Of a stretch of DNA of 64,000 nucleotides, positions 3,682 through 62,750 are shown one piece after another. Location of the stretch: IMG/VR virus record IMGVR_UViG_3300025849_000018, positions 1-64,000 of that record; one strand, 5' to 3'. The DNA is from a virus. Positions within the stretch are counted from its first letter, which is position 1, and every line of letters starts with the position of its first letter. A model generated the notes under the pieces. The model was given only the letters and a program-made list of their open reading frames with translations, was not told the origin of the DNA and made no database searches. A program made the position numbers and the translations under genes.

Positions 3682-4143
3682 TTAGTCCTCTGTGAGTAGT
3701 TGTTTATCCGTTTTTTCTTTCCACCTTGTGGAAATCGGGATATTGCGCGGACGCTTTTCTTCGGGAAGAACTACTTTCAGGTCAATGACCAATAGTCCGT
3801 CTATGAAATTAGCTCCGTCTACAACAACGTGTTCAGAGAGTCTAAAGGTTCGTGTGAACTTCTTTGCAGAAATTCCATGATGTAGATACGCGCGATTCTC
3901 TGGATCCTCAGGTTTGTCACCAGTTACAACCAGTAGACCTTCTTTAACATCTACAACGATGTCATCAGAAGAGTAACCAGCAAGTGCCAGTTCTACCGAG
4001 AATTCAGTTTCAGTGTGTTTGACTACGTTGTGTGGAGGATAGAGTTTGTTGTCGGACATATCTGACAGTCGCTCTATCTCCGACCAAACGTGATCAAAAC
4101 CAATGAAGTGTGAACGCGGGAATGAAAATGCTTTAGAAACCAT
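3682..4143 (-). CDS. hsp20: Small heat shock protein (Hsp20/IbpA-like)
   Basis: YPPHNVVK, ELALAGY, YLHHGIS..KF.R.F.L, GLL.IDL...PEEKRPR.IPI; SD AAGGAG before ATG 4143. Confidence 0.96.
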   Translation of the reverse strand: MVSKAFSFPRSHFIGFDHVWSEIERLSDMSDNKLYPPHNVVKHTETEFSVELALAGYSSDDIVVDVKEGLLVVTGDKPEDPENRAYLHHGISAKKFTRTFRLSEHVVVDGANFIDGLLVIDLKVVLPEEKRPRNIPISTRWKEKTDKQLLTED

Positions 4144-4240
4144 AACAGTTCTCCTTATATTAAGCAAGATTGTTGTTAACCTCTACCGGATTATTCCGCG
4201 TAGAGAAGTGTCGACCCGATCCCACGGTATCGACAAATTC
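4141..4240 (-). promoter_or_regulatory. ROSE-like RNA thermometer in hsp20 5' UTR
   Basis: Two upstream hairpins then UCUU-G-CUUA/UAAG-GAGA hairpin pairing the SD with a bulged G (UUGCU...AGGA). Confidence 0.7.
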
Positions 4241-4248
4241 TATTTATA
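4241..4248 (-). promoter_or_regulatory. T4-type late promoter for hsp20
   Basis: TATAAATA immediately before the structured leader. Confidence 0.75.
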
Positions 4249-4275
4249 TATTTACCTTCCTACTTCTTGTAAATA
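4245..4275. repeat. 31-bp exact direct repeat of 4920-4950 (3' end of DUF4338 gene)
   Basis: tatatatttaccttcctacttcttgtaaata at both sites, offset 675. Confidence 0.95.
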
Positions 4276-4299
4276 GATTTCTTCTTCAATGTAACAGTC
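4275..4299. repeat. 25-bp exact copy of 6317-6341 (internal piece of the 69-aa ORF)
   Basis: agatttcttcttcaatgtaacagtc at both sites. Confidence 0.95.
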
Positions 4300-4327
4300 A
4301 GATGCACTACCATTGTGCTACCGAGGA
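4292..4327 (-). pseudogene. 5' half of tRNA-Asn(GUU), truncated after the anticodon
   Basis: TCCTCGG TA GCAC-AATGGTA-GTGC A TCTGA CT GTT A; 3 nt downstream of tRNA-Thr; no 3' half seen. Confidence 0.8.
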
Positions 4328-4330
4328 AGG

Positions 4331-4406
4331 TGGTGCCGCCACAAGGAATCGAACCTTGGACCTGATGCTTACAAGGCAACTGCTCTACCTGCTGAGCTAT
4401 AGCGGC
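4331..4406 (-). tRNA. tRNA-Thr(UGU)
   Basis: 76 nt; GCCGCTA/TGGCGGC acceptor, anticodon loop CT-TGT-AA, GGTTCGATTCC T-arm, encoded CCA; one mismatch in anticodon stem. Confidence 0.93.
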
Positions 4407-4423
4407 AAACCTGTAACTATGAG

Positions 4424-4696
4424 TTATTTGTTTTCTACAAACTCATAAAGTTCTTTAGCACGGTTATTGATTTGATCAGACGTTGGCATAGGCGGAATTG
4501 CATTAATCAATTCATTAGATAATCTCTTTGCCTTATCAACTGCCTCCGGATAATTCTGGATCAAATCAATAGCTGTTTCAACTTGATTGTGAAGTTGCCA
4601 GAATGCATTCATCTGAACGTCATACTGTTGCATCTCAAGATCACGTGCCATTGAGAGTACATCGAACCGAAGTTCATAAGGTGTTTTGTTAGACAT
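4424..4696 (-). CDS. Hypothetical protein (90 aa)
   Basis: Strong SD AAGGAG; helical protein MSNKTPYELRFDVLSMARD...AKELYEFV. Confidence 0.85.
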   Translation of the reverse strand: MSNKTPYELRFDVLSMARDLEMQQYDVQMNAFWQLHNQVETAIDLIQNYPEAVDKAKRLSNELINAIPPMPTSDQINNRAKELYEFVENK

Positions 4697-4707
4697 AATA
4701 GTCTCCT

Positions 4708-4752
4708 TGTGTGTGTTGTGTGTGTTGAGCAGTTTTCCACATGCTCAGGTGG
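4708..4752 (-). promoter_or_regulatory. H-type pseudoknot plus CA-repeat leader
   Basis: CCAC-CTGAGCAT-GTGG-AAAAC-TGCTCA then ACACACACAACACACAC then SD. Confidence 0.55.
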
Positions 4753-4775
4753 TATGTTATGATTCAGATATGCCA

Positions 4776-4856
4776 CTATAGATTATCTAACACATTCTGC
4801 GGTGAAGATTCACCATAGGGATCATCTGCTGCTTCGTCAGTGAATCCTGTTTCTAC
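4776..4856 (-). pseudogene. Start-less 3' remnant resembling a peroxiredoxin (Prx5/redoxin) C-terminus
   Basis: VETGFTDEAADDPYGESSPQNVLDNL*; in-frame stop a few codons upstream, no start. Confidence 0.5.
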
Positions 4857-4923
4857 GCATTTTCTATTACCCTATTTCTTAAACTGGTCGTACTAAAACT
4901 GTGCGATCTCCGATTGAAATATA
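4847..4923. repeat. 77-bp direct repeat of 6484-6560 (3' end of cytidylyltransferase gene)
   Basis: 76/77 identical (4912 g vs 6549 c), offset 1637. Confidence 0.95.
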
Positions 4924-4926
4924 TAT

Positions 4927-6255
4927 TTACCTTCCTACTTCTTGTAAATATTTTTCTTTTGTTTGTTCCCAGTCCATAAAGATCAGATCGTCATAGTAAA
5001 GCGTTTCGTCAGATACACGATCATTCTTAATGAGACTTTTAATACGTTTGCTGGCATACTTATTCTTCCACAACTCCGTCAAATATTCGGTGCTTGTGTC
5101 AAAGAGAGGACGTAATTCAGACTGTTGACATTCTCCTCGCAAAAATTCTCTTGTGTTATCATACAATGGTGAGAAGTAAATACCGCGGGCATGTTCAGCG
5201 CTAATCAAGGTCTTGTCGATGCCAAGTTTACTGTATGTAAAATGATACGACCGGTTACGGTGATCGCGTTTTGCAGGTTGCCCTGATGGTTTGATTGCGC
5301 CATACCACTCGAAGTATTTGTATGTATGGTTTTTGTGCAACCAACTACGCATCAAATACTGTGTTTTTTTGGTCGCTTGATATGCAACACTACCTGAACT
5401 ATAACCCATTTTCTTCCAGTGTTTCAGATTATCATATTGCGATAGGCCACCCTGTTTTGTTTTACCGTAGAGTGAGGTTGTTGTAACTCCAACCAATGTA
5501 TCGCCATACTGACTTTTCCAATCATTCTGTATAGTATCAGACAAACACAGAAGAGCGAGCAACTTACCGCCAACATAGTTAAAACCCAGTGGTTGAGTTG
5601 GCACAATAGTCGAACCAATGGCCGTATAGTTGATCATATGTCCTTGAGTTTTCTTTTCACGTTCCCAACCAATCCACTTGTCACGCGGTGTAAGATCAAG
5701 GAAGTCGGATGATATACAGATCACACCAAGATACGTTTCTGTCACTTCATCAATCACAAGATAGTTTAGATTGCGACCTATGTTCGCTGAGTTTTTCATT
5801 GTCGAGGTAAAGGTACGAATTGCATTCCACTTTTCAGGTGTATTCGTTTTATTTGATGTCAAGATGAGTTTCGGAGTCAGTTTCGCATAACTTTCTAAAT
5901 TATCTGGTCGCCAGATGTTATCTCTCATCTCTTCAACAATCTTTGCGCGAGACGCATCGCAAAGTTGACTTTCAGGACCCCATAAGGTTTGTACTTCCCG
6001 AGTGGGATATTTGATATGCACTTCTTCCCACTTCTGGTAAAGTATATATTCACCGACAGTCATTTGCGACACATGTGCCAAGTCTTTAACGAGAGCATCT
6101 TTTAGCTCTTCATCGGAGACATCTTTTATTTCTTCGGGGGGATTTTTCTTTATCCAGATTTTATATTGATCTTCAATCGGTAGATGTGCATAGTCAGACA
6201 TTCTAACACATTCTTTTTCCGACGAAGCTTCTATACCTAGAAGAGATGTAAACAT
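4927..6255 (-). CDS. DUF4338/DruA-like protein, putative Mom-related GNAT-fold enzyme
   Basis: GRNLNYLV.D...YLGVI, L.PRD.WIGW, P.G.NY.GGKLLALL, DW..QYG..L..VTTTSLYG, W..MG.S.G; start could be 6201. Confidence 0.7.
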   Translation of the reverse strand: MFTSLLGIEASSEKECVRMSDYAHLPIEDQYKIWIKKNPPEEIKDVSDEELKDALVKDLAHVSQMTVGEYILYQKWEEVHIKYPTREVQTLWGPESQLCDASRAKIVEEMRDNIWRPDNLESYAKLTPKLILTSNKTNTPEKWNAIRTFTSTMKNSANIGRNLNYLVIDEVTETYLGVICISSDFLDLTPRDKWIGWEREKKTQGHMINYTAIGSTIVPTQPLGFNYVGGKLLALLCLSDTIQNDWKSQYGDTLVGVTTTSLYGKTKQGGLSQYDNLKHWKKMGYSSGSVAYQATKKTQYLMRSWLHKNHTYKYFEWYGAIKPSGQPAKRDHRNRSYHFTYSKLGIDKTLISAEHARGIYFSPLYDNTREFLRGECQQSELRPLFDTSTEYLTELWKNKYASKRIKSLIKNDRVSDETLYYDDLIFMDWEQTKEKYLQEVGR

Positions 6256-6287
6256 AACTTACTTTCCATTATATAATGATAATCAGT

Positions 6288-6497
6288 TCAGACGTAGTAA
6301 TGCCACGCGGTACTGGAGATTTCTTCTTCAATGTAACAGTCTGCACTAATGTTTTGTTTCGCCCAATGTAGTTCATTGATCATGCGATTATACCACTGCC
6401 GGTCATACTCCGAATGACACTTGGCAGCGTCCTTCTTTAGTTGACTAATCCTCATATCAAGATATTTGGATACATCTGGTTTTCTGTTTCTACGCAT
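6288..6497 (-). CDS. Hypothetical protein (69 aa)
   Basis: Overlaps upstream stop; operon-like spacing. Confidence 0.7.
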   Translation of the reverse strand: MRRNRKPDVSKYLDMRISQLKKDAAKCHSEYDRQWYNRMINELHWAKQNISADCYIEEEISSTAWHYYV

Positions 6498-6927
6498 TTT
6501 CTATTACCCTATTTCTTAAACTGGTCGTACTAAAACTGTGCGATCTCCCATTGAAATATAAATTTATCGATCGTTCTTTACAAATAGATTTGCCTGTGAA
6601 TTCGGTTTTTCTGTATTCTTCACCTAGTATACGAACATTAATAGGCAATGTCAAGAGTAAATCTTCTAAATCTTGTTCGGTGTTATATACTACAACTTCA
6701 TCAACATATTTTACAGCGCTCAGTTGTATCTGTCTCTCGATAATACTCTGTACTGGCTTGTTCTTTGTGTTTGGTCTATCAAATGTTGGATCATTTTGCA
6801 AACCAACAATCAGAAAGTCACATTGACGTTTTGCTTCTTCCAACATAGTGATATGACCTGCATGTAAAAGATCAAACGCAGATGCTGTAAACCCTATTTT
6901 ACCGCAGTCTTTATATTCTAGTTTCAC
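6490..6927 (-). CDS. Cytidylyltransferase (TagD/glycerol-3-phosphate CT-like)
   Basis: FDLLHAGH (HXGH), LIVGLQ.DP, ER..QL.AVKYVDEV, R.H.FSTT. Confidence 0.92.
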   Translation of the reverse strand: MKLEYKDCGKIGFTASAFDLLHAGHITMLEEAKRQCDFLIVGLQNDPTFDRPNTKNKPVQSIIERQIQLSAVKYVDEVVVYNTEQDLEDLLLTLPINVRILGEEYRKTEFTGKSICKERSINLYFNGRSHSFSTTSLRNRVIENA

Positions 6928-6960
6928 AGTTTTTCATACCTGACACAAAAGTGTCCCATC

Positions 6961-7323
6961 TTAATCGCATATCTCACTTTCTGATTCTGCGAGTTGGTTG
7001 CGTATACGACACTGTTCGCGTTCTACCAGTTCAAGTCTTGCCCACTCTGCCGATGTCAGGTCACGCTCTTTCATTTCATCACGATAATATTTTGCCACTT
7101 GAGCATATCGTGTGCTTTCACTCATTCTTATCCTGGTAGTTAAATCTTCTTCTAAGTTTTTTTGTGCAACATTCTGAGGTTGTTGACTCACTTCTAACTC
7201 GGTGTTATCTATAAACTCTGTGCTTAAAAACATATACCCAGCAAACACACTGCCTATTAAACTAAAAACCAGTACAGTCGCTTTAAGGTGTTTGTCATCA
7301 AATTCTACCTGTCGTTTAGTCAT
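6961..7323 (-). CDS. Hypothetical protein with N-terminal TM helix and coiled coil
   Basis: VLVFSLIGSVFAGYMFL hydrophobic segment. Confidence 0.75.
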   Translation of the reverse strand: MTKRQVEFDDKHLKATVLVFSLIGSVFAGYMFLSTEFIDNTELEVSQQPQNVAQKNLEEDLTTRIRMSESTRYAQVAKYYRDEMKERDLTSAEWARLELVEREQCRIRNQLAESESEICD

Positions 7324-7326
7324 CCG

Positions 7327-8571
7327 TTACTCACATATTTGTAAAGTATTGTCTTCAACACCTTCCTTGGACTTGAGAGTGAAATCGTTTTTAAGGAGTG
7401 TCGAATCGGATTGTTCGTTTATTTTACTATAGGTCATCCGTGTTCTGTTCATACTCTCAACCGCATTGGATTTATCAGTACCGTTATTATATATCAATCC
7501 TGATTCTGGATGTTCCCAAGTTATATCCGGAGAACTAAAGAAATTTGTGTCACGGTCAGCATAACTCATAATGCTACCATATCCTTCGAAGTCGGTATCA
7601 ATAGTTTCAGGTATAATCCATCCATACGAGTAATTATACTGTCCGGATTTTCTCGATTGCGGACTATATTGATCGCGGTCGTGCATCATTCCCAAGTTGT
7701 GTCCAACCTCGTGTGAGAATGTAATATTACCTCGATCATCGGGAATGCGATTATCTCTCTGATAACACTGTATGAATCCTTTGCTATACTGTCGTTCCAG
7801 TCGGTTATTGATCCAGGCTGCGCCACAAATTGTTGATGGTCTTGGTTCAGCAAAGATGTATGCCAAGTCAGCGTCATATTCATTCATATCGCTATCGACG
7901 GGTTCATACCAAAGATTTGACTCGTCGGGATCACGAAAGTCTTCGAGAAGTTCTATTACATCTCTTTCTGGATCAATTTCAGTTTCAATGTATGCAATAG
8001 CATTCAGATTGACATAAACACCACTCGCGGCATACAACTTGTTTGCCGCATCAAACTCTCTGTCAATTAACTCCTGATACGAACTTACACCTCTTTTTTC
8101 AAGGTCGAGATTGATGTCAATGTATACCAGAATATCTATTTGTGCAATCTCAGTGCTTTCTGGATTGTAGATGAAATTAATCGGGGTTCGTTGAGGTTGA
8201 CCATCACAATTTATATAGTTGAAGAAATCGTTATCCTCATCAATCACAGTTTTTGAGTATTCGCTCTCACATACTGTCTGTTCTAACCAAAGATTAGGAT
8301 CATCTGGATATACATCCTCTTCGTCATTATATCCATCACCATCGGTATCAGGTATGTAACCACATTCCGTGCTATTTGTTTCTATCAAATTGATTTCAAC
8401 AGTGCCATCACTGTATGTAACTTTCCGCAACAAATCAAATGAATCATCATCACAATACTGTGCATCACTCACAATGGTGACGGGCGCAGGACCGCTTGAC
8501 CCTCCGCCACACGCAACTAAAAAACATAATAAAAAAAGAAAACAATTTTTACTCTTCTGAAAATTGTCCAT
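7327..8571 (-). CDS. Lipoprotein metzincin zinc protease (reprolysin/M12B-like)
   Basis: LVA-CGGGSSG lipobox, TSP3-like DTDGDGYNDEEDVYPDDP, HEVGHNLGMMHD, Met-turn GSIMSY. Confidence 0.88.
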   Translation of the reverse strand: MDNFQKSKNCFLFLLCFLVACGGGSSGPAPVTIVSDAQYCDDDSFDLLRKVTYSDGTVEINLIETNSTECGYIPDTDGDGYNDEEDVYPDDPNLWLEQTVCESEYSKTVIDEDNDFFNYINCDGQPQRTPINFIYNPESTEIAQIDILVYIDINLDLEKRGVSSYQELIDREFDAANKLYAASGVYVNLNAIAYIETEIDPERDVIELLEDFRDPDESNLWYEPVDSDMNEYDADLAYIFAEPRPSTICGAAWINNRLERQYSKGFIQCYQRDNRIPDDRGNITFSHEVGHNLGMMHDRDQYSPQSRKSGQYNYSYGWIIPETIDTDFEGYGSIMSYADRDTNFFSSPDITWEHPESGLIYNNGTDKSNAVESMNRTRMTYSKINEQSDSTLLKNDFTLKSKEGVEDNTLQICE

Positions 8572-9016
8572 CGCCTTTATAAACTCCTATTCCAGGATAA
8601 TATACACCCTGGGTGTATTTAGGCATTCCATTGGCATCGTATGCCATATTGAGACAAACAAAATTCATTTTCAGTTCGCGCCTTTCGCCATAATACCCAG
8701 ACAACCAAACGCCAGAGGAAAGGTATGTTTGCATACTTCGAACATATGCTTCAAGAGAATACCACGCGGCCTTCTCTTTCACATCTTTAGACAATTTATG
8801 TTGCCTTTTCGCTTTGAGTTCTTCGCGACATGCTTTAATCCAAGACTTCACCCTAACAGCTGACAGGGGGTGATCATCCTCCAGATTACGAATGCTTTCG
8901 TGAATAGAAACATTCTTAGCGGGTGCCTTTGCTGCTCTTGCCAGCGCCAGTCGTTCTGCCGCAGCAGCACGTTGCTCAGGCGTCATTGGTTTTCTTTTCT
9001 TACGAACTTTTTCCAT
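8549..9016 (-). CDS. Conserved T4-like hypothetical basic protein
   Basis: MEKVRKKRKPMTPEQRAAAAERLALARAAK; start reassigned to TGATG overlap at 9016. Confidence 0.75.
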   Translation of the reverse strand: MEKVRKKRKPMTPEQRAAAAERLALARAAKAPAKNVSIHESIRNLEDDHPLSAVRVKSWIKACREELKAKRQHKLSKDVKEKAAWYSLEAYVRSMQTYLSSGVWLSGYYGERRELKMNFVCLNMAYDANGMPKYTQGVYYPGIGVYKGDGQFSEE

Positions 9017-9300
9017 CACATTTCCCTTAATATTGTAGAGGCAAGTAAGAATCCCGAAACGGCATTCAACATAATCAGGGCCCGATCTTTCCAAATGATC
9101 GAAACCCAAGTCCATAGTATAATGCCTAAGAACCCAATTGTCAAGTCATACATCCGATATTCGGGACCTGCTGACCTCATTGCCAAAGAAGCCATTATAA
9201 GAATCGAAGCAACCCACTTTAAGTACCAGTCAAAATTTTCCGGATACCATTGTCGATCTGGTTTTACTTTACCTTTCACTAATCGTATTCCTCCTGACAT
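9016..9300 (-). CDS. Small multi-pass membrane protein
   Basis: Three hydrophobic segments; WYLKWVAS...W.DRALI.LNAV. Confidence 0.8.
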   Translation of the reverse strand: MSGGIRLVKGKVKPDRQWYPENFDWYLKWVASILIMASLAMRSAGPEYRMYDLTIGFLGIILWTWVSIIWKDRALIMLNAVSGFLLASTILREM

Positions 9301-11515: not shown

Positions 11516-11814
11516 TTGTTTTTACCGTCTCCACTTGAACTGGTATATAACCCAAACCACGCGGCACCGGTGCCGACAATAATGCTGATCAATCCCGACT
11601 GTTCAATAGTTGGATTTTCGAGGTTCATAAACCACATGGTCGAATAATACAATAAGAAGGTGTATACACCTAGGAAAACTCTGGGAAATATTCTCCAAGC
11701 GTCCACTGCTTTGGCTAAGTCAATCCAATTCTGCCATTGATTCTGGCTACTGTCTACAGTCTTCGTATCAACTTCTAGTTGAATCTGTAATGTCCTTTTT
11801 TCTATATCCGACAT
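11512..11814 (-). CDS. Two-TM phage membrane protein (holin-like topology)
   Basis: DAWRIFPR + TM1, PT.EQSG + TM2 GAAWFGLY. Confidence 0.75.
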   Translation of the reverse strand: MSDIEKRTLQIQLEVDTKTVDSSQNQWQNWIDLAKAVDAWRIFPRVFLGVYTFLLYYSTMWFMNLENPTIEQSGLISIIVGTGAAWFGLYTSSSGDGKNK

Positions 11815-11854
11815 AAGTGACCTTCAAAATTTATTTTTATTGTAATATTTGAAT

Positions 11855-12160
11855 AGGTGCCACACTTTGATAACAAGGCAGTGGCCTCCTCGGAAGATTA
11901 TGCCGCTAGGGCTATATCTCCATAGTAGTTGTCATTTGCAGCAACTATAGTTTTGAACCACCGTTTTTACAGTCAGCGTTCATGGACTGATTCTCCACAT
12001 TGCTTTCGGTTGCCCGTCGATTCCGTAACGCCCCCATCAAAAGTACACTACCCGCTTTATCAGATACGTTCCAGACTTAACTGGAATAGTGTACTTTTGG
12101 TGGAGGCGGCGGGAGTTGAACCCGCGTCCGCACTTCCTATTTACAATGTTTCATCGAATA
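11855..12160 (-). ncRNA. ssrA: Circularly permuted (two-piece) tmRNA, tag ANDNYYGDIALAA
   Basis: Acceptor piece ...GGACGCGGGTTCAACTCCCGCCGCCTCCACCA (CCA ends 12098), intervening hairpin 12036-12097, coding piece starting GGGGGCG at 12035 giving G3.U70; tag ORF 11939-11898; outer ends approximate. Confidence 0.95.
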
Positions 12161-12164
12161 ACTT

Positions 12165-12172
12165 TATTTATA
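12165..12172 (-). promoter_or_regulatory. T4-type late promoter for tmRNA
   Basis: TATAAATA directly upstream of acceptor piece. Confidence 0.75.
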
Positions 12173-12175
12173 GTA

Positions 12176-12628
12176 TTAGAGTTTCATTACTTCATCAGCA
12201 TACACATACTGATATTTATGAGCCTCAACTTCCCAAGGCAGATCAAAATAATCAACCTTCTGCGAATCGATTCGTCGTCCTTTCCAGTTACATACATCCA
12301 ACATTGTTACCAAATCCCGAAGTTCACCTCGGGCATATTGTTTGACATGGATCATCTCATGAACGATCGTGGCAACGAAGTCGCGATTGGACAACTTGGT
12401 GTCCACACGAATCTCGAAATCGCGGGGCAATCTATTCTCACAGTCGATATAGTTACAGTCGCCATGTATACCCTCTCGATCCTCAAGACTTGCGTCACCC
12501 AGTATTTTGACCGACAAAGATTTTGCCATGCGCGGCATCATTTTAGAAACATAAAAATCAATAGTCTCGAATGCCAGTTTCTTCTGTGCCTTTGATAACT
12601 TGCGATATCTTTTTTCGGTCAGTATCAT
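12176..12628 (-). CDS. SprT-like zinc metallopeptidase domain protein
   Basis: T..HEMIHVKQY..GEL and Y.DLPWE.EA motifs; TAATG coupling. Confidence 0.85.
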   Translation of the reverse strand: MILTEKRYRKLSKAQKKLAFETIDFYVSKMMPRMAKSLSVKILGDASLEDREGIHGDCNYIDCENRLPRDFEIRVDTKLSNRDFVATIVHEMIHVKQYARGELRDLVTMLDVCNWKGRRIDSQKVDYFDLPWEVEAHKYQYVYADEVMKL

Positions 12629-51968: not shown

Positions 51969-53845
<1,877 letters not shown>

Positions 53846-53858
53846 TTTATTTTATCTC

Positions 53859-56800
53859 TTAATCTGAACTTGACTTGCCAGAAATACCATATGAAGCATC
53901 AAACTCTAGATAGACGGCGTGCATTCCATCTTCAAAAGATGCTTCTGTGTGACCGCCGATAATCAATTTATTCCCCAAAGATTCTATTGAAGTACCGAAT
54001 TCATTTGAACCTGTACCTATTTGATATTGTTTCCAAGCATCAGCATCCATGTCTATAATACCAACAATTAAATCTAACAACCCAGAAGTCTGATTATCAT
54101 CTGCGAAGAATCCGGAACTATGACCGACTATCGCAATTCTACCATCTGGAAGTTTAGTACTGTGATGCCCGTTCTGTGTTACCAAGCACGACCTTAATGT
54201 TCCTGTTTGATACGCATCACCCCAAACATCAGTTACATAATTAAATTTAACTACACCGAAATCTTCTGATCCAGAGTTGGTTTGATTACCAAGCGCACCA
54301 TTTGTAGAATATGTTACAACTAATGTATTCGCGCCAATATCATGTATATTTATACCACTATCATTGAAGCCACTTCCAGTTTGATAATATTCGGTAGTGT
54401 GAGTTGTCATCTCGTGGATACCTAAGAAAATATCATATCCACCTAGATTCGTATGAGTAGGATCACCTAACGTGCCTGTTGATCTTCCAGTAATAGCAAT
54501 GTCTGTATTCTCCAATTCTGTGACTGCATATATCTCTTCATCTTTGGTAGAACCATTCTGAAAATACATAAATGCGCCAGTTGATGGATTAATATGATAG
54601 ATAATATAATCATACACACCAGACTCACCAGTGTTTTTTCTTCCTATATCTCCTGATGTCACACCAACAGGTACAATCATTCCTCCGCTGTGTTGTATAA
54701 TATCATATCCAAATGCGTTACCATCATCAGCAGTACCATCACCAACAGTAGCTACTTGATAGAAATTAAAGATACTATCGGTAAAGTTGTATCTCAGCCC
54801 TGAAGTTTTATCCGATCGATAAGAATCTGTATTTAAATAATTTTGCACATCAGACAAGTCAACTGACGCTGCCCAGAACTGAAATACACCTTGCGCGCCG
54901 AATGAACCATCATATTCTTCAACAGTAGCAAAGGTTGCAGTGTATGTCGGACTGCCGGCCGCAGTTCTTGTCCAACTAGCAGTTGAATCGGCAGAAGCAG
55001 AAATAGAAGTAATTGTCGCACTATTTAAAGATTCCGTTAAAGTTGTTGCTTGATATAACATCTTTGTGGTTGGGTTACCATTAATATGATAGTTACCCGT
55101 TCCGAACTCTTGTTTCCAAGATCGGAATAACATTCCATCAATACTGTCAGAGTGACTTGTTTTGGTTCCAACAGAAACAATATTATCCTGTGTAGCATCA
55201 TCAATCACAGCAACAAGATTTTCTGTTCCCATGAACCCTATGCTATTTTGCCATTGAATTGCACCAGTATTATCATACTGTACAATAACACCATTTGCTC
55301 CTGCTTGACCAACAACATGAATCTTTCGATTCGTATTGCCAATAACCCAGTTTGGATTTGTGTAGTTTTCAGCAACAACAGAATTAAAAGTACACGAACC
55401 AAGAGTCCTTGACCAAGTCTTACCGACGTTATATGATGCAGAACCTAAAGTTTCGTCAACCTGTAACTGTAATACAAAACCATCAGATTCTTCATTACCA
55501 ACTACCGCGTAATCAGCGCCGTTACCAGAACCATCAGGGTCGCCAATACATGCAATATCATTCGCGGCACCATTGGCAGAAGCAGAAAAACCACCAATCC
55601 ATTGAATCATTCGATTTGATGTACTGTCAGTTTCACCCATACCATAACGAATCTTATTTGCACCATTATCGCCGGAGAATAAGAATCTGCCTTTTGTGCT
55701 ATCAGTATCAGGGCGAAGTCGATTTACATTCAGATTAGAAACGGTGTTAACTTCTGTCACAGTGCCGTCTAAATCAACAACGGTAAAGTATGTTGTTGTA
55801 CCAGTTTCCATCGCCATAACAACATACTCTGTACCGCCATCGTTTGTTACGACTACGCTCTTCGCAACTTCAGCACTAGAAGTTCCATATGCATATGACC
55901 AAGTGACAGAAGAAGTTGTGCCTGTTGGATTTATTTTAATTAAAAGAGCATCGGTGCTACCTGCGCCGAAATTAACAGTGCTTCCACAAATATAAAGATT
56001 GTCGCTAGAATCTATCGCGATACCATATGCTACATCTGCGCCAGTTGATCCACTATCATATTTGTATTGCCAAACTTCCTCGAAGTTTTTATTTAATTTA
56101 TAGATAACAATGTAACCATCTTCATGATTTGCCAGTGTGTAGTAGTTTTCATCAGAGTCTTGTATTACATCGACTGGAGATATTTCGTTTAATCCGTCTT
56201 CAATATTCCTCAAGAATCCATGGCATTTGATATCACGCTTCGTGACAAGTTCTGATTTAGTGTACCCCGTGAGCCATATTTTATCATCAGATGCTTGACA
56301 CACGCCAGTACAGAAATCTACACCCATTCCACCATAAACAAAATGAACTTCACGATCTGTGTTATCACCATCAATCAAACTAAATAAGATATTTTTTTCT
56401 GATGTATTTGCAATATTTAATCCATTAACTTGGCCAACCGCTACTTTTCTTCCATCATTTAAAGGAAGAATATGTTCATAGATTTCTTCACCACCCAAAT
56501 CAATTTCTTTTTTACGATAGAAACTTGGACTTCCTGTGGAATATTCCAAAATTCTTTTATCGGTCGCGATACCTTTTGGTTCGAGATTATTGTATCTGGA
56601 CACAGAACCATTGTTTGTATCATACTCAAGATATCCGGTGTTGGCGGCTGAACGAGTTAAAAATCCTCCAGTTGAGGAATCATAATCGAGGTGTTCATAA
56701 CCAAGAAATTGTTCGTCGAGTTGAAACGAATAAACTCCATCGCCCTGATAGGTTGAAGCACCGCCATCAGATGTCCCACTTAATAAAAGGTAGAACGAGG

Positions 56801-58031
56801 TGTCTGATGAGTTATAACGAAAACCATGTACACGGACAGGACTTGCGCTTATATTTGTAAGTACCTGTCCCTCGTCAGTCCAAGTTGTTCCATTATATGA
56901 ATGTATACGAATACCGCCATTGATGATATCGCTATATGCGACAAATAGATCGGATCCGACCGAAACACATTGAGCATCGCATGGACCAAGAAAATCAGAT
57001 TTTAATACTTGTCTAACGAGATCACTACTGTCTTGTGTTGCGGCGCTCGGTATCGACCAAACTTCCAAATCCGTGTTAGCAGAATTGGTTTGATTTGTCA
57101 TTAAGACTGGGAAATATACTCTAGTGTCTAATAAGTCTCCGCAACTTGCTCTTACTGGCCAATTCTTTTGTACACCAGATGTGCCATTCGCAGTAAAGAC
57201 AGGATCCCTCAAGTCGAATGTTCCTAACTGTACCTCACCTGTAAAAGAAGTTGCAGAATCGTTGTATGTTTTACTGAATACATCCCAACTAGTGTTATTC
57301 GCGCTAATATAAAAGTAATGATACCGATCACTTGTGCCGCGTATTAAACCGCCTGTCATATAATTTTTATTTGCCGTGCTGGGTAGAGTTACATCATTGT
57401 GTGAGTTGTGCGCGCCACCAACTGAAGGAGTATGAACTCTTGCTAAACGACTCTGATATTTTGTTCCTTGAGTATTGACATCGATACTAATCGAATATCC
57501 AAAAGATTTGTCATCAGAATCAATGAATCCACCGCCAGAAGTTGTTTCTCGGCCGCCCTCATAATCCACATAGAAAGAAGGTAGGTGTTTGTGATACTGA
57601 TAATAATACCATTCAGTATCGCCTTCTGGAAGATAAAAACGATCCCAATAAAATGCATCGTCAGGCACGGCATATGCTCCCATGTGGGAAAACATTATCG
57701 CGTCATCTTCTATTGCGTTGGTAAGATCGTTAACTCCCGCACCAATATGTTCAATTGCTCCTGCGTGATAGTTTACAGACGATCCATCCCAATCTTCAGA
57801 CAACAAAGGAATTGTACCTTCTATTGTCAAATAATCGGCCGCGCTTTCCAGGTCAGCAATATTGCCCCACTCGTGTAACCTTACCTTAGCACCGACCGTA
57901 TCATTTGAACCATTGACAGGAAGATATGTATACCAAAATCCTTGCCTATCAATGTTATTGTTGATAGGCAACGGTGAATACTCAGAAGTATTTGCTGAGT
58001 ATTCGTATGTTACATTAATGTAAGTTGCCAT
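53859..58031 (-). CDS. Large putative virion protein with beta-propeller repeats (1390 aa)
   Basis: AYGIAIDSSDNLYICG-type blades; G/S/T/D-rich; in fibre cluster. Confidence 0.75.
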   Translation of the reverse strand: MATYINVTYEYSANTSEYSPLPINNNIDRQGFWYTYLPVNGSNDTVGAKVRLHEWGNIADLESAADYLTIEGTIPLLSEDWDGSSVNYHAGAIEHIGAGVNDLTNAIEDDAIMFSHMGAYAVPDDAFYWDRFYLPEGDTEWYYYQYHKHLPSFYVDYEGGRETTSGGGFIDSDDKSFGYSISIDVNTQGTKYQSRLARVHTPSVGGAHNSHNDVTLPSTANKNYMTGGLIRGTSDRYHYFYISANNTSWDVFSKTYNDSATSFTGEVQLGTFDLRDPVFTANGTSGVQKNWPVRASCGDLLDTRVYFPVLMTNQTNSANTDLEVWSIPSAATQDSSDLVRQVLKSDFLGPCDAQCVSVGSDLFVAYSDIINGGIRIHSYNGTTWTDEGQVLTNISASPVRVHGFRYNSSDTSFYLLLSGTSDGGASTYQGDGVYSFQLDEQFLGYEHLDYDSSTGGFLTRSAANTGYLEYDTNNGSVSRYNNLEPKGIATDKRILEYSTGSPSFYRKKEIDLGGEEIYEHILPLNDGRKVAVGQVNGLNIANTSEKNILFSLIDGDNTDREVHFVYGGMGVDFCTGVCQASDDKIWLTGYTKSELVTKRDIKCHGFLRNIEDGLNEISPVDVIQDSDENYYTLANHEDGYIVIYKLNKNFEEVWQYKYDSGSTGADVAYGIAIDSSDNLYICGSTVNFGAGSTDALLIKINPTGTTSSVTWSYAYGTSSAEVAKSVVVTNDGGTEYVVMAMETGTTTYFTVVDLDGTVTEVNTVSNLNVNRLRPDTDSTKGRFLFSGDNGANKIRYGMGETDSTSNRMIQWIGGFSASANGAANDIACIGDPDGSGNGADYAVVGNEESDGFVLQLQVDETLGSASYNVGKTWSRTLGSCTFNSVVAENYTNPNWVIGNTNRKIHVVGQAGANGVIVQYDNTGAIQWQNSIGFMGTENLVAVIDDATQDNIVSVGTKTSHSDSIDGMLFRSWKQEFGTGNYHINGNPTTKMLYQATTLTESLNSATITSISASADSTASWTRTAAGSPTYTATFATVEEYDGSFGAQGVFQFWAASVDLSDVQNYLNTDSYRSDKTSGLRYNFTDSIFNFYQVATVGDGTADDGNAFGYDIIQHSGGMIVPVGVTSGDIGRKNTGESGVYDYIIYHINPSTGAFMYFQNGSTKDEEIYAVTELENTDIAITGRSTGTLGDPTHTNLGGYDIFLGIHEMTTHTTEYYQTGSGFNDSGINIHDIGANTLVVTYSTNGALGNQTNSGSEDFGVVKFNYVTDVWGDAYQTGTLRSCLVTQNGHHSTKLPDGRIAIVGHSSGFFADDNQTSGLLDLIVGIIDMDADAWKQYQIGTGSNEFGTSIESLGNKLIIGGHTEASFEDGMHAVYLEFDASYGISGKSSSD

Positions 58032-58034
58032 ATA

Positions 58035-58403
58035 TTAAGTTCCTGAGATAGGAGTTCCTGGTCGAAAAATAATATCAGTTGAATTAACTGCGAACCCTAT
58101 AAACAGTGATCGCACTGTTGTTGAGGGTGTCGGGGGAGAACTGGTTGGTGTTCCATCTGCTGCTAGAAAAAGTGTAGAACCTGCGCTCAATCCAGTAAAT
58201 CCTTGAACTAATCCCCAACTATAATATATATCATTTATTTTGATTAAAACATTGTTGAGTTGTATAGATGTGTCACTCGAATCTGCATCTGTAACGGTGT
58301 TAGTTCCATTGATGCGAACAATCTTGCCATTAGTACCTCCAGTTAAACCGCTCACTGTGAGAGCAACATCGGTAATCACATTTGTTGATTTAACAAAAGA
58401 CAT
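58035..58403 (-). CDS. Small putative virion protein
   Basis: GL.AG...FL..DG..T..PP...IGFAV motif. Confidence 0.7.
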   Translation of the reverse strand: MSFVKSTNVITDVALTVSGLTGGTNGKIVRINGTNTVTDADSSDTSIQLNNVLIKINDIYYSWGLVQGFTGLSAGSTLFLAADGTPTSSPPTPSTTVRSLFIGFAVNSTDIIFRPGTPISGT

Positions 58404-58405
58404 TT

Positions 58406-59359
58406 TTAAACTCCTTTCCTTGATATTTCTATATATGCGGTATTAGAAACAGAACCAGTGTTATCTGAATTTTGAACATACATTTCCAGATAATCATTCT
58501 CAGCGAGCGAATATATTTCGTCCAAAGAAACTGTGGAGTTTGGACCGAGAGTGGCTGTTTCAAGTGTTGTTGTGGCATTTTTCTTTAAAGAAAAAGTATA
58601 CGAATCAGAAGAACCTGCTGATGTCGTTGTAAACAGACCATTTACTCTATAGTATCCATCAACCTTTATTGTCAGTCTTGATGCTGTACCATTGCTCCAA
58701 TATTCTGATCCCAATACATCAGCATTTTGATCATATTCTGTTTCGGAAAAGGTGATCGCCGTGTCGCTGGATGTTACCGAAAAGGGAGAGGTCAAATAAG
58801 TCTTAGCACCTGAGAAAGCACTCCAAGTAGAAATGCCTGTGCCGAGAGATAGACCTTCTTGAGTAAATTCTATGAAACTTGTATCGCTTTCTATTGAACC
58901 TGCGGCCGTGCTTTCTGCCGCAAAAATTTCTATATAATCTCCAACAGTTAGTTGTAATACATCTTCAAAATTGACAAACTGATTACTTGATACAGTTGTT
59001 GTTGATAACTGTGTTCCATTTTTATAAATCGCGATTGTATATGAAGAAGCAGTACCACCCGCAGTTGTGTTTATCTGACCATTCAACCGATAAAATCCAT
59101 TCTCAGTAATAGAAAATCTTGTCGGTGCTGAGACAGTCCAAAGACCAGCGGTGTCAAATTCTTCAGTTGTCCAGGATATTCCTGTCATCGTTTCACTTAA
59201 CGCGAAGTCCGAAGATAACTTGAGTTTCGCACCTTTAAATGCTCTCTTTGTTGAACGTGTGATCACGTCCCACTTCTCGCCATCCCATTGCCACACAGCA
59301 GCATTGTCATCTGTATATGTGTCATTCGTTGACGGTGATGTTGGAAAATCTAATGCCAT
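58406..59359 (-). CDS. Virion protein with two C1q/TNF-like domains
   Basis: Duplicated AF.GAK...E.D...W....RL.I...G.YR.NG...L..GDY.E; LDFP.SP N-module. Confidence 0.75.
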   Translation of the reverse strand: MALDFPTSPSTNDTYTDDNAAVWQWDGEKWDVITRSTKRAFKGAKLKLSSDFALSETMTGISWTTEEFDTAGLWTVSAPTRFSITENGFYRLNGQINTTAGGTASSYTIAIYKNGTQLSTTTVSSNQFVNFEDVLQLTVGDYIEIFAAESTAAGSIESDTSFIEFTQEGLSLGTGISTWSAFSGAKTYLTSPFSVTSSDTAITFSETEYDQNADVLGSEYWSNGTASRLTIKVDGYYRVNGLFTTTSAGSSDSYTFSLKKNATTTLETATLGPNSTVSLDEIYSLAENDYLEMYVQNSDNTGSVSNTAYIEISRKGV

Positions 59360-60144
59360 TATTGTGTCGCTCTTATTTTTTTCCTAATATTAGGACTTGT
59401 TAATTCACTTGATGTAGATTGACCATATAAAAACTCAACGCCTTCGTTAGTCCGCGTTTGGTCCGATCCATCCAATTTAAAATAAACTCCTATCATCAAA
59501 TATCCATCGGCAGAACCTAATTCGTCTCCTGCGGATGCAAAACTGTCACAGTACCAAGAAATATTCATAGTCGCGGCAGACATATTGGTTTCTCTTTGAC
59601 TTTCTGCTGTTGTAATTGATGTTGTCAAACCAGCATCAGAAAACATTGGGACAGCACCAGGAGAAGAATAACCAGAAGCAGGAACCCATTGGTTAGTTGA
59701 TGTGTCAAAACCACCAACGAACAGTTGCGCGCCCATTCGCATGTCTAGTCTTTGTCTACTGGTCCTGATGTTCTGTACATCTAATGATAACGACCACTGG
59801 CCAGCATCAAATTTAGTATTGTAAGGATATAATAATGCTATTCCATTATTTACCACTAATTGTTCGCTCGCGCCAGATGTCACGTTTCTCGTAAAAGTTC
59901 CTGTCGTCAGCGATGTGCCAGCGGTGACGCTCCAACTTGGTAACGAACCAGACAAGTTATTATCATTTATCTCACTACCTCCAGTAAAAGTCTGGTCCAT
60001 CCATCCATATTGCGTACCACTCTCACGGCTAACATTCCAAATACTTGTAGTTGAATCATTAGTTCCTGTTGGTACGCCAGTCAAAGATGGTTGCCAAACT
60101 AAAGCATTATTAATTTGATTTAAATACCAAGTCTTAGTTGCCAT
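59359..60144 (-). CDS. Putative virion protein
   Basis: S/T/G-rich, TAATG coupled. Confidence 0.7.
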   Translation of the reverse strand: MATKTWYLNQINNALVWQPSLTGVPTGTNDSTTSIWNVSRESGTQYGWMDQTFTGGSEINDNNLSGSLPSWSVTAGTSLTTGTFTRNVTSGASEQLVVNNGIALLYPYNTKFDAGQWSLSLDVQNIRTSRQRLDMRMGAQLFVGGFDTSTNQWVPASGYSSPGAVPMFSDAGLTTSITTAESQRETNMSAATMNISWYCDSFASAGDELGSADGYLMIGVYFKLDGSDQTRTNEGVEFLYGQSTSSELTSPNIRKKIRATQ

Positions 60145-60155
60145 TTCAATTCACC

Positions 60156-62750
<2,595 letters not shown>

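What the first reader, a model, noticed from the sequence alone, without database searches (positions are those of the whole stretch)
4245..4950. 675-bp mosaic insertion stitched from local gene ends by serial microhomology jumps
Seen, in transcription order after the DUF4338 stop: 77 bp copied from the cytidylyltransferase 3' end (6484-6560, 1 mismatch); a jump at GTAGAAACAG into a foreign block (peroxiredoxin-like tail, 90-aa gene, tRNA-Thr, half tRNA-Asn); a jump at TAGTGCA(TCT)GACTGTTA into 25 bp of the 69-aa gene (6317-6341); a jump at an A-rich patch back into the last 31 bp of DUF4338 (4920-4950), then the hsp20 promoter. Four junctions, near-perfect copies, no integrase or transposase, all resident genes intact. 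Inference: a recent replicative template-switching (MMBIR/FoSTeS-like) gene-capture event; the repeats also allow excision or amplification of the 675-bp or the 1637-bp (DUF4338) module.
Basis: partly seen in the sequence, partly recalled or inferred. Interest (0 to 1): 0.75.

Follow-up and report, generated by a model that had tools for sequence, protein, structure and literature searches.

The report
Microhomology-stitched gene insertion in marine phage
A 675-base patch in an uncultured marine T4-like phage is really stitched from three short copies of the phage's own gene ends plus a tRNA-carrying block from a related phage; it is a clean natural example of a known process (illegitimate recombination in a phage's variable region), not a new kind of element.

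Summary
Window 4245-4919 is a mosaic of three copies of local gene ends around a 537-bp block.
- a' (4847-4923): the cytidylyltransferase (CT) end.
- c' (4275-4299): part of the 69-aa gene.
- f' (4245-4275): the DruA/DUF4338 end.
- Block F: a peroxiredoxin tail, ORF90, tRNA-Thr and the 5' half of a tRNA-Asn.

All four junctions carry more homology than chance gives. An independent metagenome contig (L281, 99.8% identical) reproduces two junctions. This makes an assembly artefact unlikely.

A donor-type locus exists. L088 has the full peroxiredoxin followed by ORF90. L084/L085 have ORF90, tRNA-Thr and a whole tRNA-Asn. L088 seems to co-occur with the insertion form in one sample.

The locus lies in the variable region between gp43 and gp62/gp44 of a T4-like myophage. 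Here the gene upstream of the hsp20 late promoter differs in every relative. I found no integrase, homing nuclease or promoter-stem-loop (PeSL) repeats.

Joining by microhomology is well supported. A single serial template-switch event cannot be separated from a stepwise route (tandem duplication, then deletion and replacement), because the three copies are colinear with their sources. No empty DruA-hsp20 site was found.

This is a new member of a known kind, of moderate interest.

The parts
3682..4167 (-). hsp20 gene. The conserved ATG is at 4143; the longest ORF starts at a TTG at 4167. It is the downstream neighbour of the insertion.
   Evidence: Pfam HSP20, E 1e-14. 80% aa identity to L121 and L126.
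4241..4248 (-). T4-type late-promoter octamer in front of hsp20. It straddles the boundary between copy f' and the unique hsp20 leader.
   Evidence: It is the only such octamer on the minus strand in 3-8 kb. Homology of relatives' hsp20 cassettes to the window mostly ends at 4248-4255, at 4231 in two of them (sequences).
4245..4275 (-). f': a perfect 31-nt copy of the DruA 3' end plus stop codon (source 4920-4950).
4275..4309 (-). c': a copy of 6317-6348 inside the 69-aa gene. It is 25/25 perfect, then 7 more bases match after a 3-nt indel. It overlaps the anticodon-loop end of the tRNA-Asn half (junction J3).
4292..4328 (-). 5' half of a tRNA-Asn(GUU) gene, cut in the anticodon loop. Not functional.
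   Evidence: Alignment to the complete tRNA-Asn of L084/L085. ARAGORN calls no tRNA here.
4331..4406 (-). Intact tRNA-Thr(UGU). It is the only tRNA on the 94.9-kb contig.
   Evidence: ARAGORN. Rfam tRNA, 70 bits.
4424..4696 (-). ORF90, a conserved small protein of unknown function carried in the captured block.
   Evidence: 51 homologues. No Pfam or PHROG match. 100% identical over the 33 residues present in L088.
4776..4846 (-). Remnant of a peroxiredoxin gene: about the last 23 codons plus the stop. Its frame is not open upstream.
   Evidence: tblastn of the L088 171-aa peroxiredoxin, residues 146-171, 96%. PHROG 'peroxyredoxin antioxidant' for the L088 protein.
4847..4923 (-). a': a copy of the last 77 nt of the CT gene region (source 6484-6560). 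It includes the CT stop codon and the first 14 nt of the 69-aa gene.
   Evidence: It is 100% identical to the source copy in strain L281.
4927..6255 (-). DruA/DUF4338-like gene, intact. Its last 31 nt (4920-4950, including the stop) are source f.
   Evidence: Pfam DruA, E 7.5e-24. Relatives align to residue 442.
6288..6497 (-). 69-aa gene, intact. It holds source c (6317-6348).
   Evidence: ORF. Homologue P0002 conserves the c stretch.
6490..6927 (-). Cytidylyltransferase-like (CT) gene, intact. Its 3' end (6484-6560) is source a.
   Evidence: Pfam CTP_transf_like. 80% aa identity to L121 and L205.

Best explanation
The 675-bp patch is a real, inherited insertion in the hyperplastic region between gp43 and gp62/gp44 of an uncultured marine T4-like myophage. 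It was made by microhomology-guided joining, not by any site-specific enzyme.

The most likely single history is this:
- During recombination-dependent replication in a cell co-infected with a related phage, a growing 3' end reached the end of the DruA gene.
- It slipped back to the CT 3' end and copied 77 nt.
- It switched to the co-infecting genome inside its peroxiredoxin gene and copied 537 nt (peroxiredoxin tail, ORF90, tRNA-Thr, half of tRNA-Asn).
- It returned to the 69-aa gene for about 25-32 nt.
- It then jumped forward to the last 31 nt of DruA and continued into the hsp20 late promoter.

The net effect is that the phage gains ORF90 and a working tRNA-Thr, and no resident gene or the hsp20 promoter is damaged.

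Shown: the pieces, their sources, the junction homologies, a donor-type locus, and independent recovery of two junctions. Inferred: that all four joins happened in one replicative event, and that T4-type replication was responsible.
For: - Three near-perfect local copies and their intact sources.
- Homology at each junction. J1 has 4 nt strict and 9/10 extended. J2 has 3 nt strict and 9/10 extended against L088. J3 has 8 nt plus 7 nt after a 3-nt gap. J4 has 1 nt strict and 8/11 extended. Scores of this size are reached by about 0.1-0.5% of random registers.
- Donor-type loci. L088 has the full peroxiredoxin followed by ORF90 and matches 4856-4597. The coding parts are 97-99% identical, while its flanking genes are only about 77% identical. 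L084/L085 have ORF90, tRNA-Thr and a whole tRNA-Asn.
- L281 reproduces J1 and J2 in a separate assembly with 8 SNPs. There the CT-end copy equals its source exactly.
- L088 and L281 end on the same 123 nt, as at an assembly-graph branch, so both forms seem to share one sample.
- Breakpoints cluster: J3 and J4 are 25 nt apart, and J1 and J2 are 77 nt apart. This fits short low-processivity tracts as described for MMBIR (PMC2621351).
- The phage encodes gp43, gp44, gp45, gp46-like and UvsW proteins.
- No integrase, transposase or homing nuclease was found among the ORFs of 2.7-9 kb.
Against: - The copies a', c' and f' are colinear and co-oriented with a, c and f. A decayed second copy of a tandem duplication would look the same.
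- Selection against long direct repeats could by itself explain why only short copies survive.
- No reads were available, and junctions J3 and J4 have no independent contig.
- L088 differs from the window in the spacer between the peroxiredoxin stop and ORF90 (a block with a 32-nt length difference). It is therefore a relative of the donor, not the donor.
- The contig is only about 53% complete, so the donor could be another part of the same genome.
Confidence: 0.5

Rival explanations
1. Stepwise history, with the same kind of joins made in separate events. First, an unequal crossover at the 9/10 homology between the DruA end and the CT end made a 1637-bp tandem duplication, or joined two allelic variants of the CT-hsp20 interval in tandem. 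Later, a deletion between short repeats removed 1366 bp of the second copy. Two illegitimate crossovers with a related phage then replaced 135 bp of it with the 537-bp block.
For: - The order and orientation of a', c' and f' equal those of a, c and f.
- J1 is a typical short-homology duplication join.
- Recombination between a and a' or between f and f' would regenerate the two simple variants.
- The interval upstream of the hsp20 promoter differs in every relative, so events there are frequent.
- Strain divergence of 0.18% is too small to date the copies apart.
- From memory, not checked here: T4 forms tandem duplications and amplifications at short homologies.
Against: - No intermediate was recovered.
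- Independent breakpoints would have to fall within 25 nt (J3, J4) and 77 nt (J1, J2) of each other in a 1.6-kb unit. That is roughly 1e-3 if positions were uniform, though selection for short repeats weakens this argument.
- All copies were perfect when made.
Confidence: 0.35
2. Assembly or library artefact. The contig would be a chimera of co-occurring related phages that share the ORF90 region, or it would contain amplification chimeras.
For: - It is a metagenome-assembled viral contig.
- A related phage sharing near-identical ORF90 sequence occurs in the same type of sample and breaks another assembly exactly there.
- J3 and J4 have no independent support.
Against: - L281 carries J1 and J2 in a different assembly with its own SNPs.
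- Junction homologies of 1-10 nt are far below any assembler's word length.
- Both sides of the shared block are flanked by sequences specific to this phage (a', c'+f').
- The outer flanks are syntenic with L121: CT, hsp20, o66, lysozyme, gp43.
- No other such patchwork occurs in the contig.
- Identical ORF90 and identical DruA proteins are each recorded on 25 contigs, and the longest contig recorded for both is 134,466 bp.
Confidence: 0.05
3. Targeted cassette mobility. Candidates are recombination between promoter-stem-loop (PeSL) cassettes through a mini-circle, tRNA-directed site-specific integration, or homing.
For: - The locus is in a hyperplastic region.
- The hsp20 cassette boundary coincides with a promoter in all relatives.
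- ORF90 sits in five different contexts among relatives.
- One breakpoint lies in a tRNA anticodon loop.
Against: - The flanking repeats are gene ends, not regulatory motifs.
- Sigma-70-like promoters and terminators are no more frequent than in shuffles, and none sits at a junction.
- There is no integrase or homing nuclease.
- Only the 5' tRNA half is present, and there is no second att-like copy.
Confidence: 0.05

Closest known systems
MMBIR / FoSTeS complex rearrangements (Hastings et al. 2009, PMC2621351)
   Same: - Several junctions in one rearrangement, each with microhomology.
- Short templated tracts copied from nearby sequences whose sources stay intact.
- A longer tract copied from another molecule.
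   Different: - Described for cellular chromosomes (human copy-number variants, E. coli amplification), not for a phage.
- All pieces here are in direct orientation and colinear.
- A single event is not demonstrated.
PeSL-mediated modular shuffling in hyperplastic regions of T4-type phages (Arbiol et al. 2010, PMC2839356; Comeau et al. 2014, PMC4122927)
   Same: - Same genomic setting: a variable region between core replication genes of a T4-like phage.
- Gain of a small gene cassette from a relative.
- No dedicated recombinase.
   Different: - PeSL exchange is homologous recombination between repeated early-promoter plus stem-loop cassettes.
- Here the joins lie in coding gene ends, a tRNA anticodon loop and a late-promoter octamer, with only 1-10 nt of identity.
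- This is the 'random illegitimate recombination' that those authors contrast with PeSL exchange.
Short-homology tandem duplications and amplifications in phage T4 (rII duplications, Hp17 amplifications; recalled from memory, not checked here)
   Same: A head-to-tail join of the end of a unit to its start at an imperfect homology of about 10 nt (J1).
   Different: Only 133 of the 1637 nt of a second copy are present, and a foreign block sits inside it.
Phage mosaicism by illegitimate recombination / 'moron' accretion (Hendrix and co-workers, as discussed in PMC2839356)
   Same: A foreign gene block is added between resident genes without disrupting them.
   Different: The parents of every joint are still recognisable here, because the event left duplicated flanks. 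The block brings no evident promoter or terminator of its own.

Membership tests
MMBIR/FoSTeS-type complex rearrangement | Two or more novel junctions with templated segments in one rearrangement | tested here: met
   Four junctions and three local templated pieces plus one foreign piece within 675 bp.
MMBIR/FoSTeS-type complex rearrangement | Microhomology at the junctions | tested here: met
   Strict 4, 3, 8 and 1 nt. Extended 9/10, 9/10, 15/18 and 8/11. Above chance.
MMBIR/FoSTeS-type complex rearrangement | Replicative: the source sequences remain intact (copy gain) | tested here: met
   CT, the 69-aa gene and DruA are intact, and the copies are 98-100% identical.
MMBIR/FoSTeS-type complex rearrangement | All switches made in a single replication event | not testable with these tools
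No intermediates appeared, but sampling is thin.
PeSL modular shuffling (T4-type phages) | Cassette flanked by repeated early-promoter plus stem-loop motifs where the crossover occurs | tested here: not met
   Repeats are gene ends. The promoter and terminator scan is at shuffle level, with none at a junction.
PeSL modular shuffling (T4-type phages) | Located in a hyperplastic region between core genes | tested here: met
   The locus lies between gp43 (186-2768) and gp62/gp44/gp45/gp46 (15.5-22 kb). Relatives differ in content there.
Site-specific integration at a tRNA gene | Integrase gene and duplicated tRNA segment as att sites | tested here: not met
   No integrase among the ORFs. Only one 5' tRNA-Asn half is present, with no second copy in the 94.9 kb.
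Simple tandem duplication at short homology | Two head-to-tail copies of one unit with a single novel join | tested here: inconclusive
   J1 has that form and the spacing is 1637. The second copy is reduced to 77 + 32 + 31 nt and holds foreign DNA.
Homing-endonuclease-driven insertion | Endonuclease gene (HNH, GIY-YIG, LAGLIDADG) within or next to the insert | tested here: not met
   The only ORF in the insert is ORF90, which has no Pfam or PHROG match.

The most novel reading that the evidence does not exclude
A T4-like phage made a four-junction, MMBIR-like serial template switch in a single round of recombination-dependent replication during mixed infection. In doing so it captured a working tRNA gene from a co-infecting relative. 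If so, break-induced-replication-type template switching, known from cellular genomes, would be a direct source of gene gain in phage hyperplastic regions. The resulting 83-nt and 31-nt direct repeats could then let the population flip between DruA-carrying and tRNA-carrying forms.
Probability: 0.4. Interest if true: 0.55.

Novelty: new member of a known kind. Interest (0 to 1): 0.4.

Why it matters
How phage genomes become mosaics is usually inferred from old, eroded joints. Here every joint still shows both parents, and a donor-type lineage seems to co-occur in the same water sample. The insertion is carried by at least two strains.

The case shows that gain of a tRNA and a small gene in a T4-like variable region needed nothing more than 1-10 nt of homology. 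It can be tested directly against time-series read data. It is one example of a known process, in an uncultured phage. Its value is illustrative, not conceptual.

Tried and rejected
- Near-identical relatives in IMG/VR. An exact 25-mer of the DruA end and a 28-mer across J3 both gave 0 hits. The tool notes that records very near the window may be left out.
I therefore could not fetch the 134,466-bp and 97,073-bp contigs that carry identical ORF90, DruA or CT proteins.
- The cultured-phage collection has no close relative. DNA matches are only to the tRNA-Thr, to DruA of Pelagibacter myophages at 67-69%, and to CT genes of Vibrio and Roseobacter phages at about 65-69%. gp43 is 47-48% identical to cyanomyophage gp43.
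- ORF90 and the 69-aa gene have no Pfam or PHROG family.
- I looked for an empty DruA-hsp20 site among 80 DruA loci and 80 hsp20 loci and found none. DruA is never within 1 kb of hsp20 in them.
- I looked for a second peroxiredoxin or ORF90 copy in the 94.9-kb contig and found none.
- The 14-mer at the J2 joint recurs 8 times at 52-62 kb. These are codons of collagen-like repeats, so I rejected it as coincidence.
- Rejected as causes: PeSL exchange, integrase and homing (and the ORF content).
- An RNA-mediated origin is suggested by the cut in the anticodon loop. I set it aside because the 8-nt identity with the 69-aa gene explains the breakpoint, and no reverse transcriptase is seen in the ORFs examined near the locus.
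Full report
**Setting**

The window is the first 64 kb of a 94,927-bp IMG/VR viral contig, estimated about 53% complete. It encodes these T4-type core proteins:
- a gp43-type DNA polymerase, 47-48% identical to that of cyanomyophages;
- the gp44 clamp loader, the gp45 clamp, an SMC-like gp46 and UvsW;
- the gp23 capsid protein, the scaffold and the prohead protease.

It is therefore an uncultured marine T4-like myophage. The finding lies in the stretch of small, variable genes between gp43 (186-2768) and gp62/gp44 (15.5-17.4 kb). This is a hyperplastic region in the sense used for T4-type phages (PMC2839356, PMC4122927).

**The observation**

All genes at the locus are on the minus strand:
- CT, a cytidylyltransferase-like gene (6490-6927);
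- a 69-aa gene (6288-6497);
- a DruA/DUF4338-like gene (4927-6255);
- ORF90 (4424-4696);
- tRNA-Thr(UGU) (4331-4406);
- hsp20 (3682-4167).

Repeat searches confirm three copies:
- a' = 4847-4923, a copy of 6484-6560 (77 nt, 1 mismatch; 83 nt with 2 mismatches if extended);
- c' = 4275-4299, a copy of 6317-6341 (25/25, continuing to 6348 after a 3-nt indel);
- f' = 4245-4275, a copy of 4920-4950 (31/31).

No other dispersed repeat of this quality exists in the first 50 kb.

The sources are the native copies:
- CT and DruA align with relatives to their last residues.
- A 74%-identical homologue of the 69-aa protein conserves the stretch that c encodes.

**The block between the copies**

Window 4856-4779 encodes the last 26 residues of a peroxiredoxin. 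The complete 171-aa gene is in L088 (IMGVR_UViG_3300009496_001342). There it is followed, as in the window, by a spacer and ORF90.

The coding parts are 97-99% identical between L088 and the window. The genes flanking them in L088 are only about 77% identical in DNA to their window counterparts at 13.8-17.1 kb. The spacer differs by a replaced block with a 32-nt length difference. L088 is therefore a close relative of the donor, not the donor itself.

L084/L085 (80% identity) show ORF90 followed by tRNA-Thr and a complete tRNA-Asn. The window keeps only the 5' half of tRNA-Asn, up to the anticodon loop (4292-4328). The 94.9-kb contig has no other peroxiredoxin, ORF90 or tRNA.

**Junctions**

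Aligning each recombinant joint with both parents gives the following:

| Junction | Joins | Strict identity | Extended |
|---|---|---|---|
| J1 | DruA end to CT-end copy | 4 nt | 9 of 10 |
| J3 | tRNA-Asn loop to the 69-aa gene | 8 nt | 7 more after a 3-nt gap |
| J4 | 69-aa gene copy to DruA end | 1 nt | 8 of 11 |

Against 20,000 random registers from the same genome, scores like those of J1 and J4 occur in 0.09% and 0.5% of cases. J2 and J3 correspond to scores that about 0.09% and 0.05% of those registers reach. The joins are therefore guided by microhomology.

J1 falls inside the only T4-type late-promoter octamer on this strand (4241-4248). Because f' was duplicated, that promoter is still intact directly in front of hsp20.

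**Is it real?**

It equals window 4597-9081 with 8 substitutions and contains J1 and J2. It is a separate assembly of a slightly different strain.

In L281 the CT end and its copy are identical. The window's single mismatch (position 6549) is therefore a later substitution in the source. Both CT alleles (NGR and NRR) circulate, on 23 and 15 contigs respectively.

L281 and the reverse complement of L088 share exactly their terminal 123 nt, and both stop at window position 4597. This is the signature of a branch in one de Bruijn graph. I infer that the insertion form and the donor-type form co-occur in one sample. The link between the two contig names and one sample is from my memory of IMG naming and was not verified.

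Further points weigh against a chimera:
- The junction identities are far shorter than any assembler's word length.
- Phage-specific copies flank the shared block on both sides.
- The outer flanks are syntenic with L121.

**Context in relatives**

The nearest relatives for CT and hsp20 (L121, L139, L122; 80% aa identity) have this order: CT, an antisense 90-aa ORF, hsp20, o66, lysozyme, gp43. They have no 69-aa gene, no DruA and no block F at this site.

The nearest relative by gp43 (L126, 83%) has the M12 peptidase directly before the hsp20 promoter. In most relatives, homology to the window's hsp20 cassette stops at 4248-4255, which is at the late promoter; in two it stops at 4231.

ORF90 sits after gp45 in L085, after the permuted tmRNA in L086, before DruA in L087 and after the peroxiredoxin in L088. 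The site is thus a hot spot of cassette turnover, and block F is a piece of a module common in this phage group.

**Mechanism**

No integrase, transposase or homing nuclease is present. Sigma-70-like promoters and terminators occur at shuffle level, and none lies at a junction. PeSL exchange and site-specific routes are therefore not supported. With high confidence (about 0.9) the joints were made by illegitimate, microhomology-guided recombination or template switching.

Whether this was one event is open.

For a single serial template switch of the MMBIR type:
- The templated tracts are very short.
- The breakpoints cluster tightly: J3 and J4 are 25 nt apart, and J1 and J2 are 77 nt apart.
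- The copies were perfect when made.
- The phage has T4-type recombination-dependent replication genes.

For a stepwise route:
- a', c' and f' have the order and orientation of a, c and f. The patch reads as a second copy of the 1637-bp unit in which 135 bp were replaced and 1366 bp deleted.
- Selection against long direct repeats would leave just such short remnants.

I put the single-event reading at about 0.5, the stepwise reading at about 0.35, an artefact at 0.05 and targeted mobility at 0.05.

**Consequences**

The phage gains ORF90 and a structurally sound tRNA-Thr, its only tRNA on the contig. The peroxiredoxin tail and the tRNA-Asn half are dead remnants.

Direct repeats of 83 and 31 nt now flank the 1637-bp (69-aa gene plus DruA) unit and the 675-bp unit. 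Recombination between them would give the two simple forms, but I have no evidence that this happens. The insertion is shared by two strains 0.18% apart, so it is stably inherited.

**Verdict**

This is a well-preserved example of a known process, so I class it as a new member of a known kind. Interest is moderate (0.4).

Noticed in passing
Relatives L004 and L084 have a normal tRNA-Gly(UCC) in that same position. It aligns to that tRNA with a 7-nt loss in the D arm. It looks like a decaying orthologue of a phage tRNA-Gly, not a purpose-built RNA.
   Followed up: partly
window 4231-4255; L121:5900-6000; L126:330-480: In most relatives the hsp20 cassette begins at the late-promoter octamer. The upstream neighbour differs each time: CT plus an antisense ORF, the M12 peptidase, or gp62. 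The promoter edge is a recurrent recombination boundary.
   Followed up: partly
L084, L085, L086, L087, L088 (ORF90 at 102-383, 6001-6282, 6001-6282, 6001-6279, 4076-4174): ORF90 occupies a different neighbourhood in each relative: after gp45, after the tmRNA, before DruA, or after the peroxiredoxin. It has a conserved CA-rich leader of about 30 nt. It may be an unusually mobile small cassette.
   Followed up: partly
L088 end and L281 start (window 4597-4719): Two contigs share exactly 123 terminal bases and stop at the same position, as at a de Bruijn graph branch. Donor-type and insertion-type phages apparently co-occur in one sample.
   Followed up: partly
window 52405-62469: A 14-mer identical to the J2 joint (4838-4851) recurs 8 times inside collagen-like repeats of structural genes. 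I judge it a coincidence of codons.
   Followed up: yes
window 11807-12190; L086:5604-6023; L087:2447-2863; L005:14966-15349: A circularly permuted tmRNA (Rfam tmRNA_permuted, 94.6 bits) is conserved in several related phages, with a similar tag peptide. This hints at an alphaproteobacterial host.
   Followed up: no
window 4927-6255: The stand-alone DruA/DUF4338-like gene is widespread in marine T4-like contigs: 159 confirmed stretches in IMG/VR, and present in Pelagibacter phages Mosig and HTVC008M. No other Druantia gene stood out at the few loci I inspected, though I made no dedicated search for them.
   Followed up: no
contig 93935-93984 and 94031-94080 (outside the window): A perfect 50-nt direct repeat lies 96 nt apart near the contig end.
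   Followed up: no
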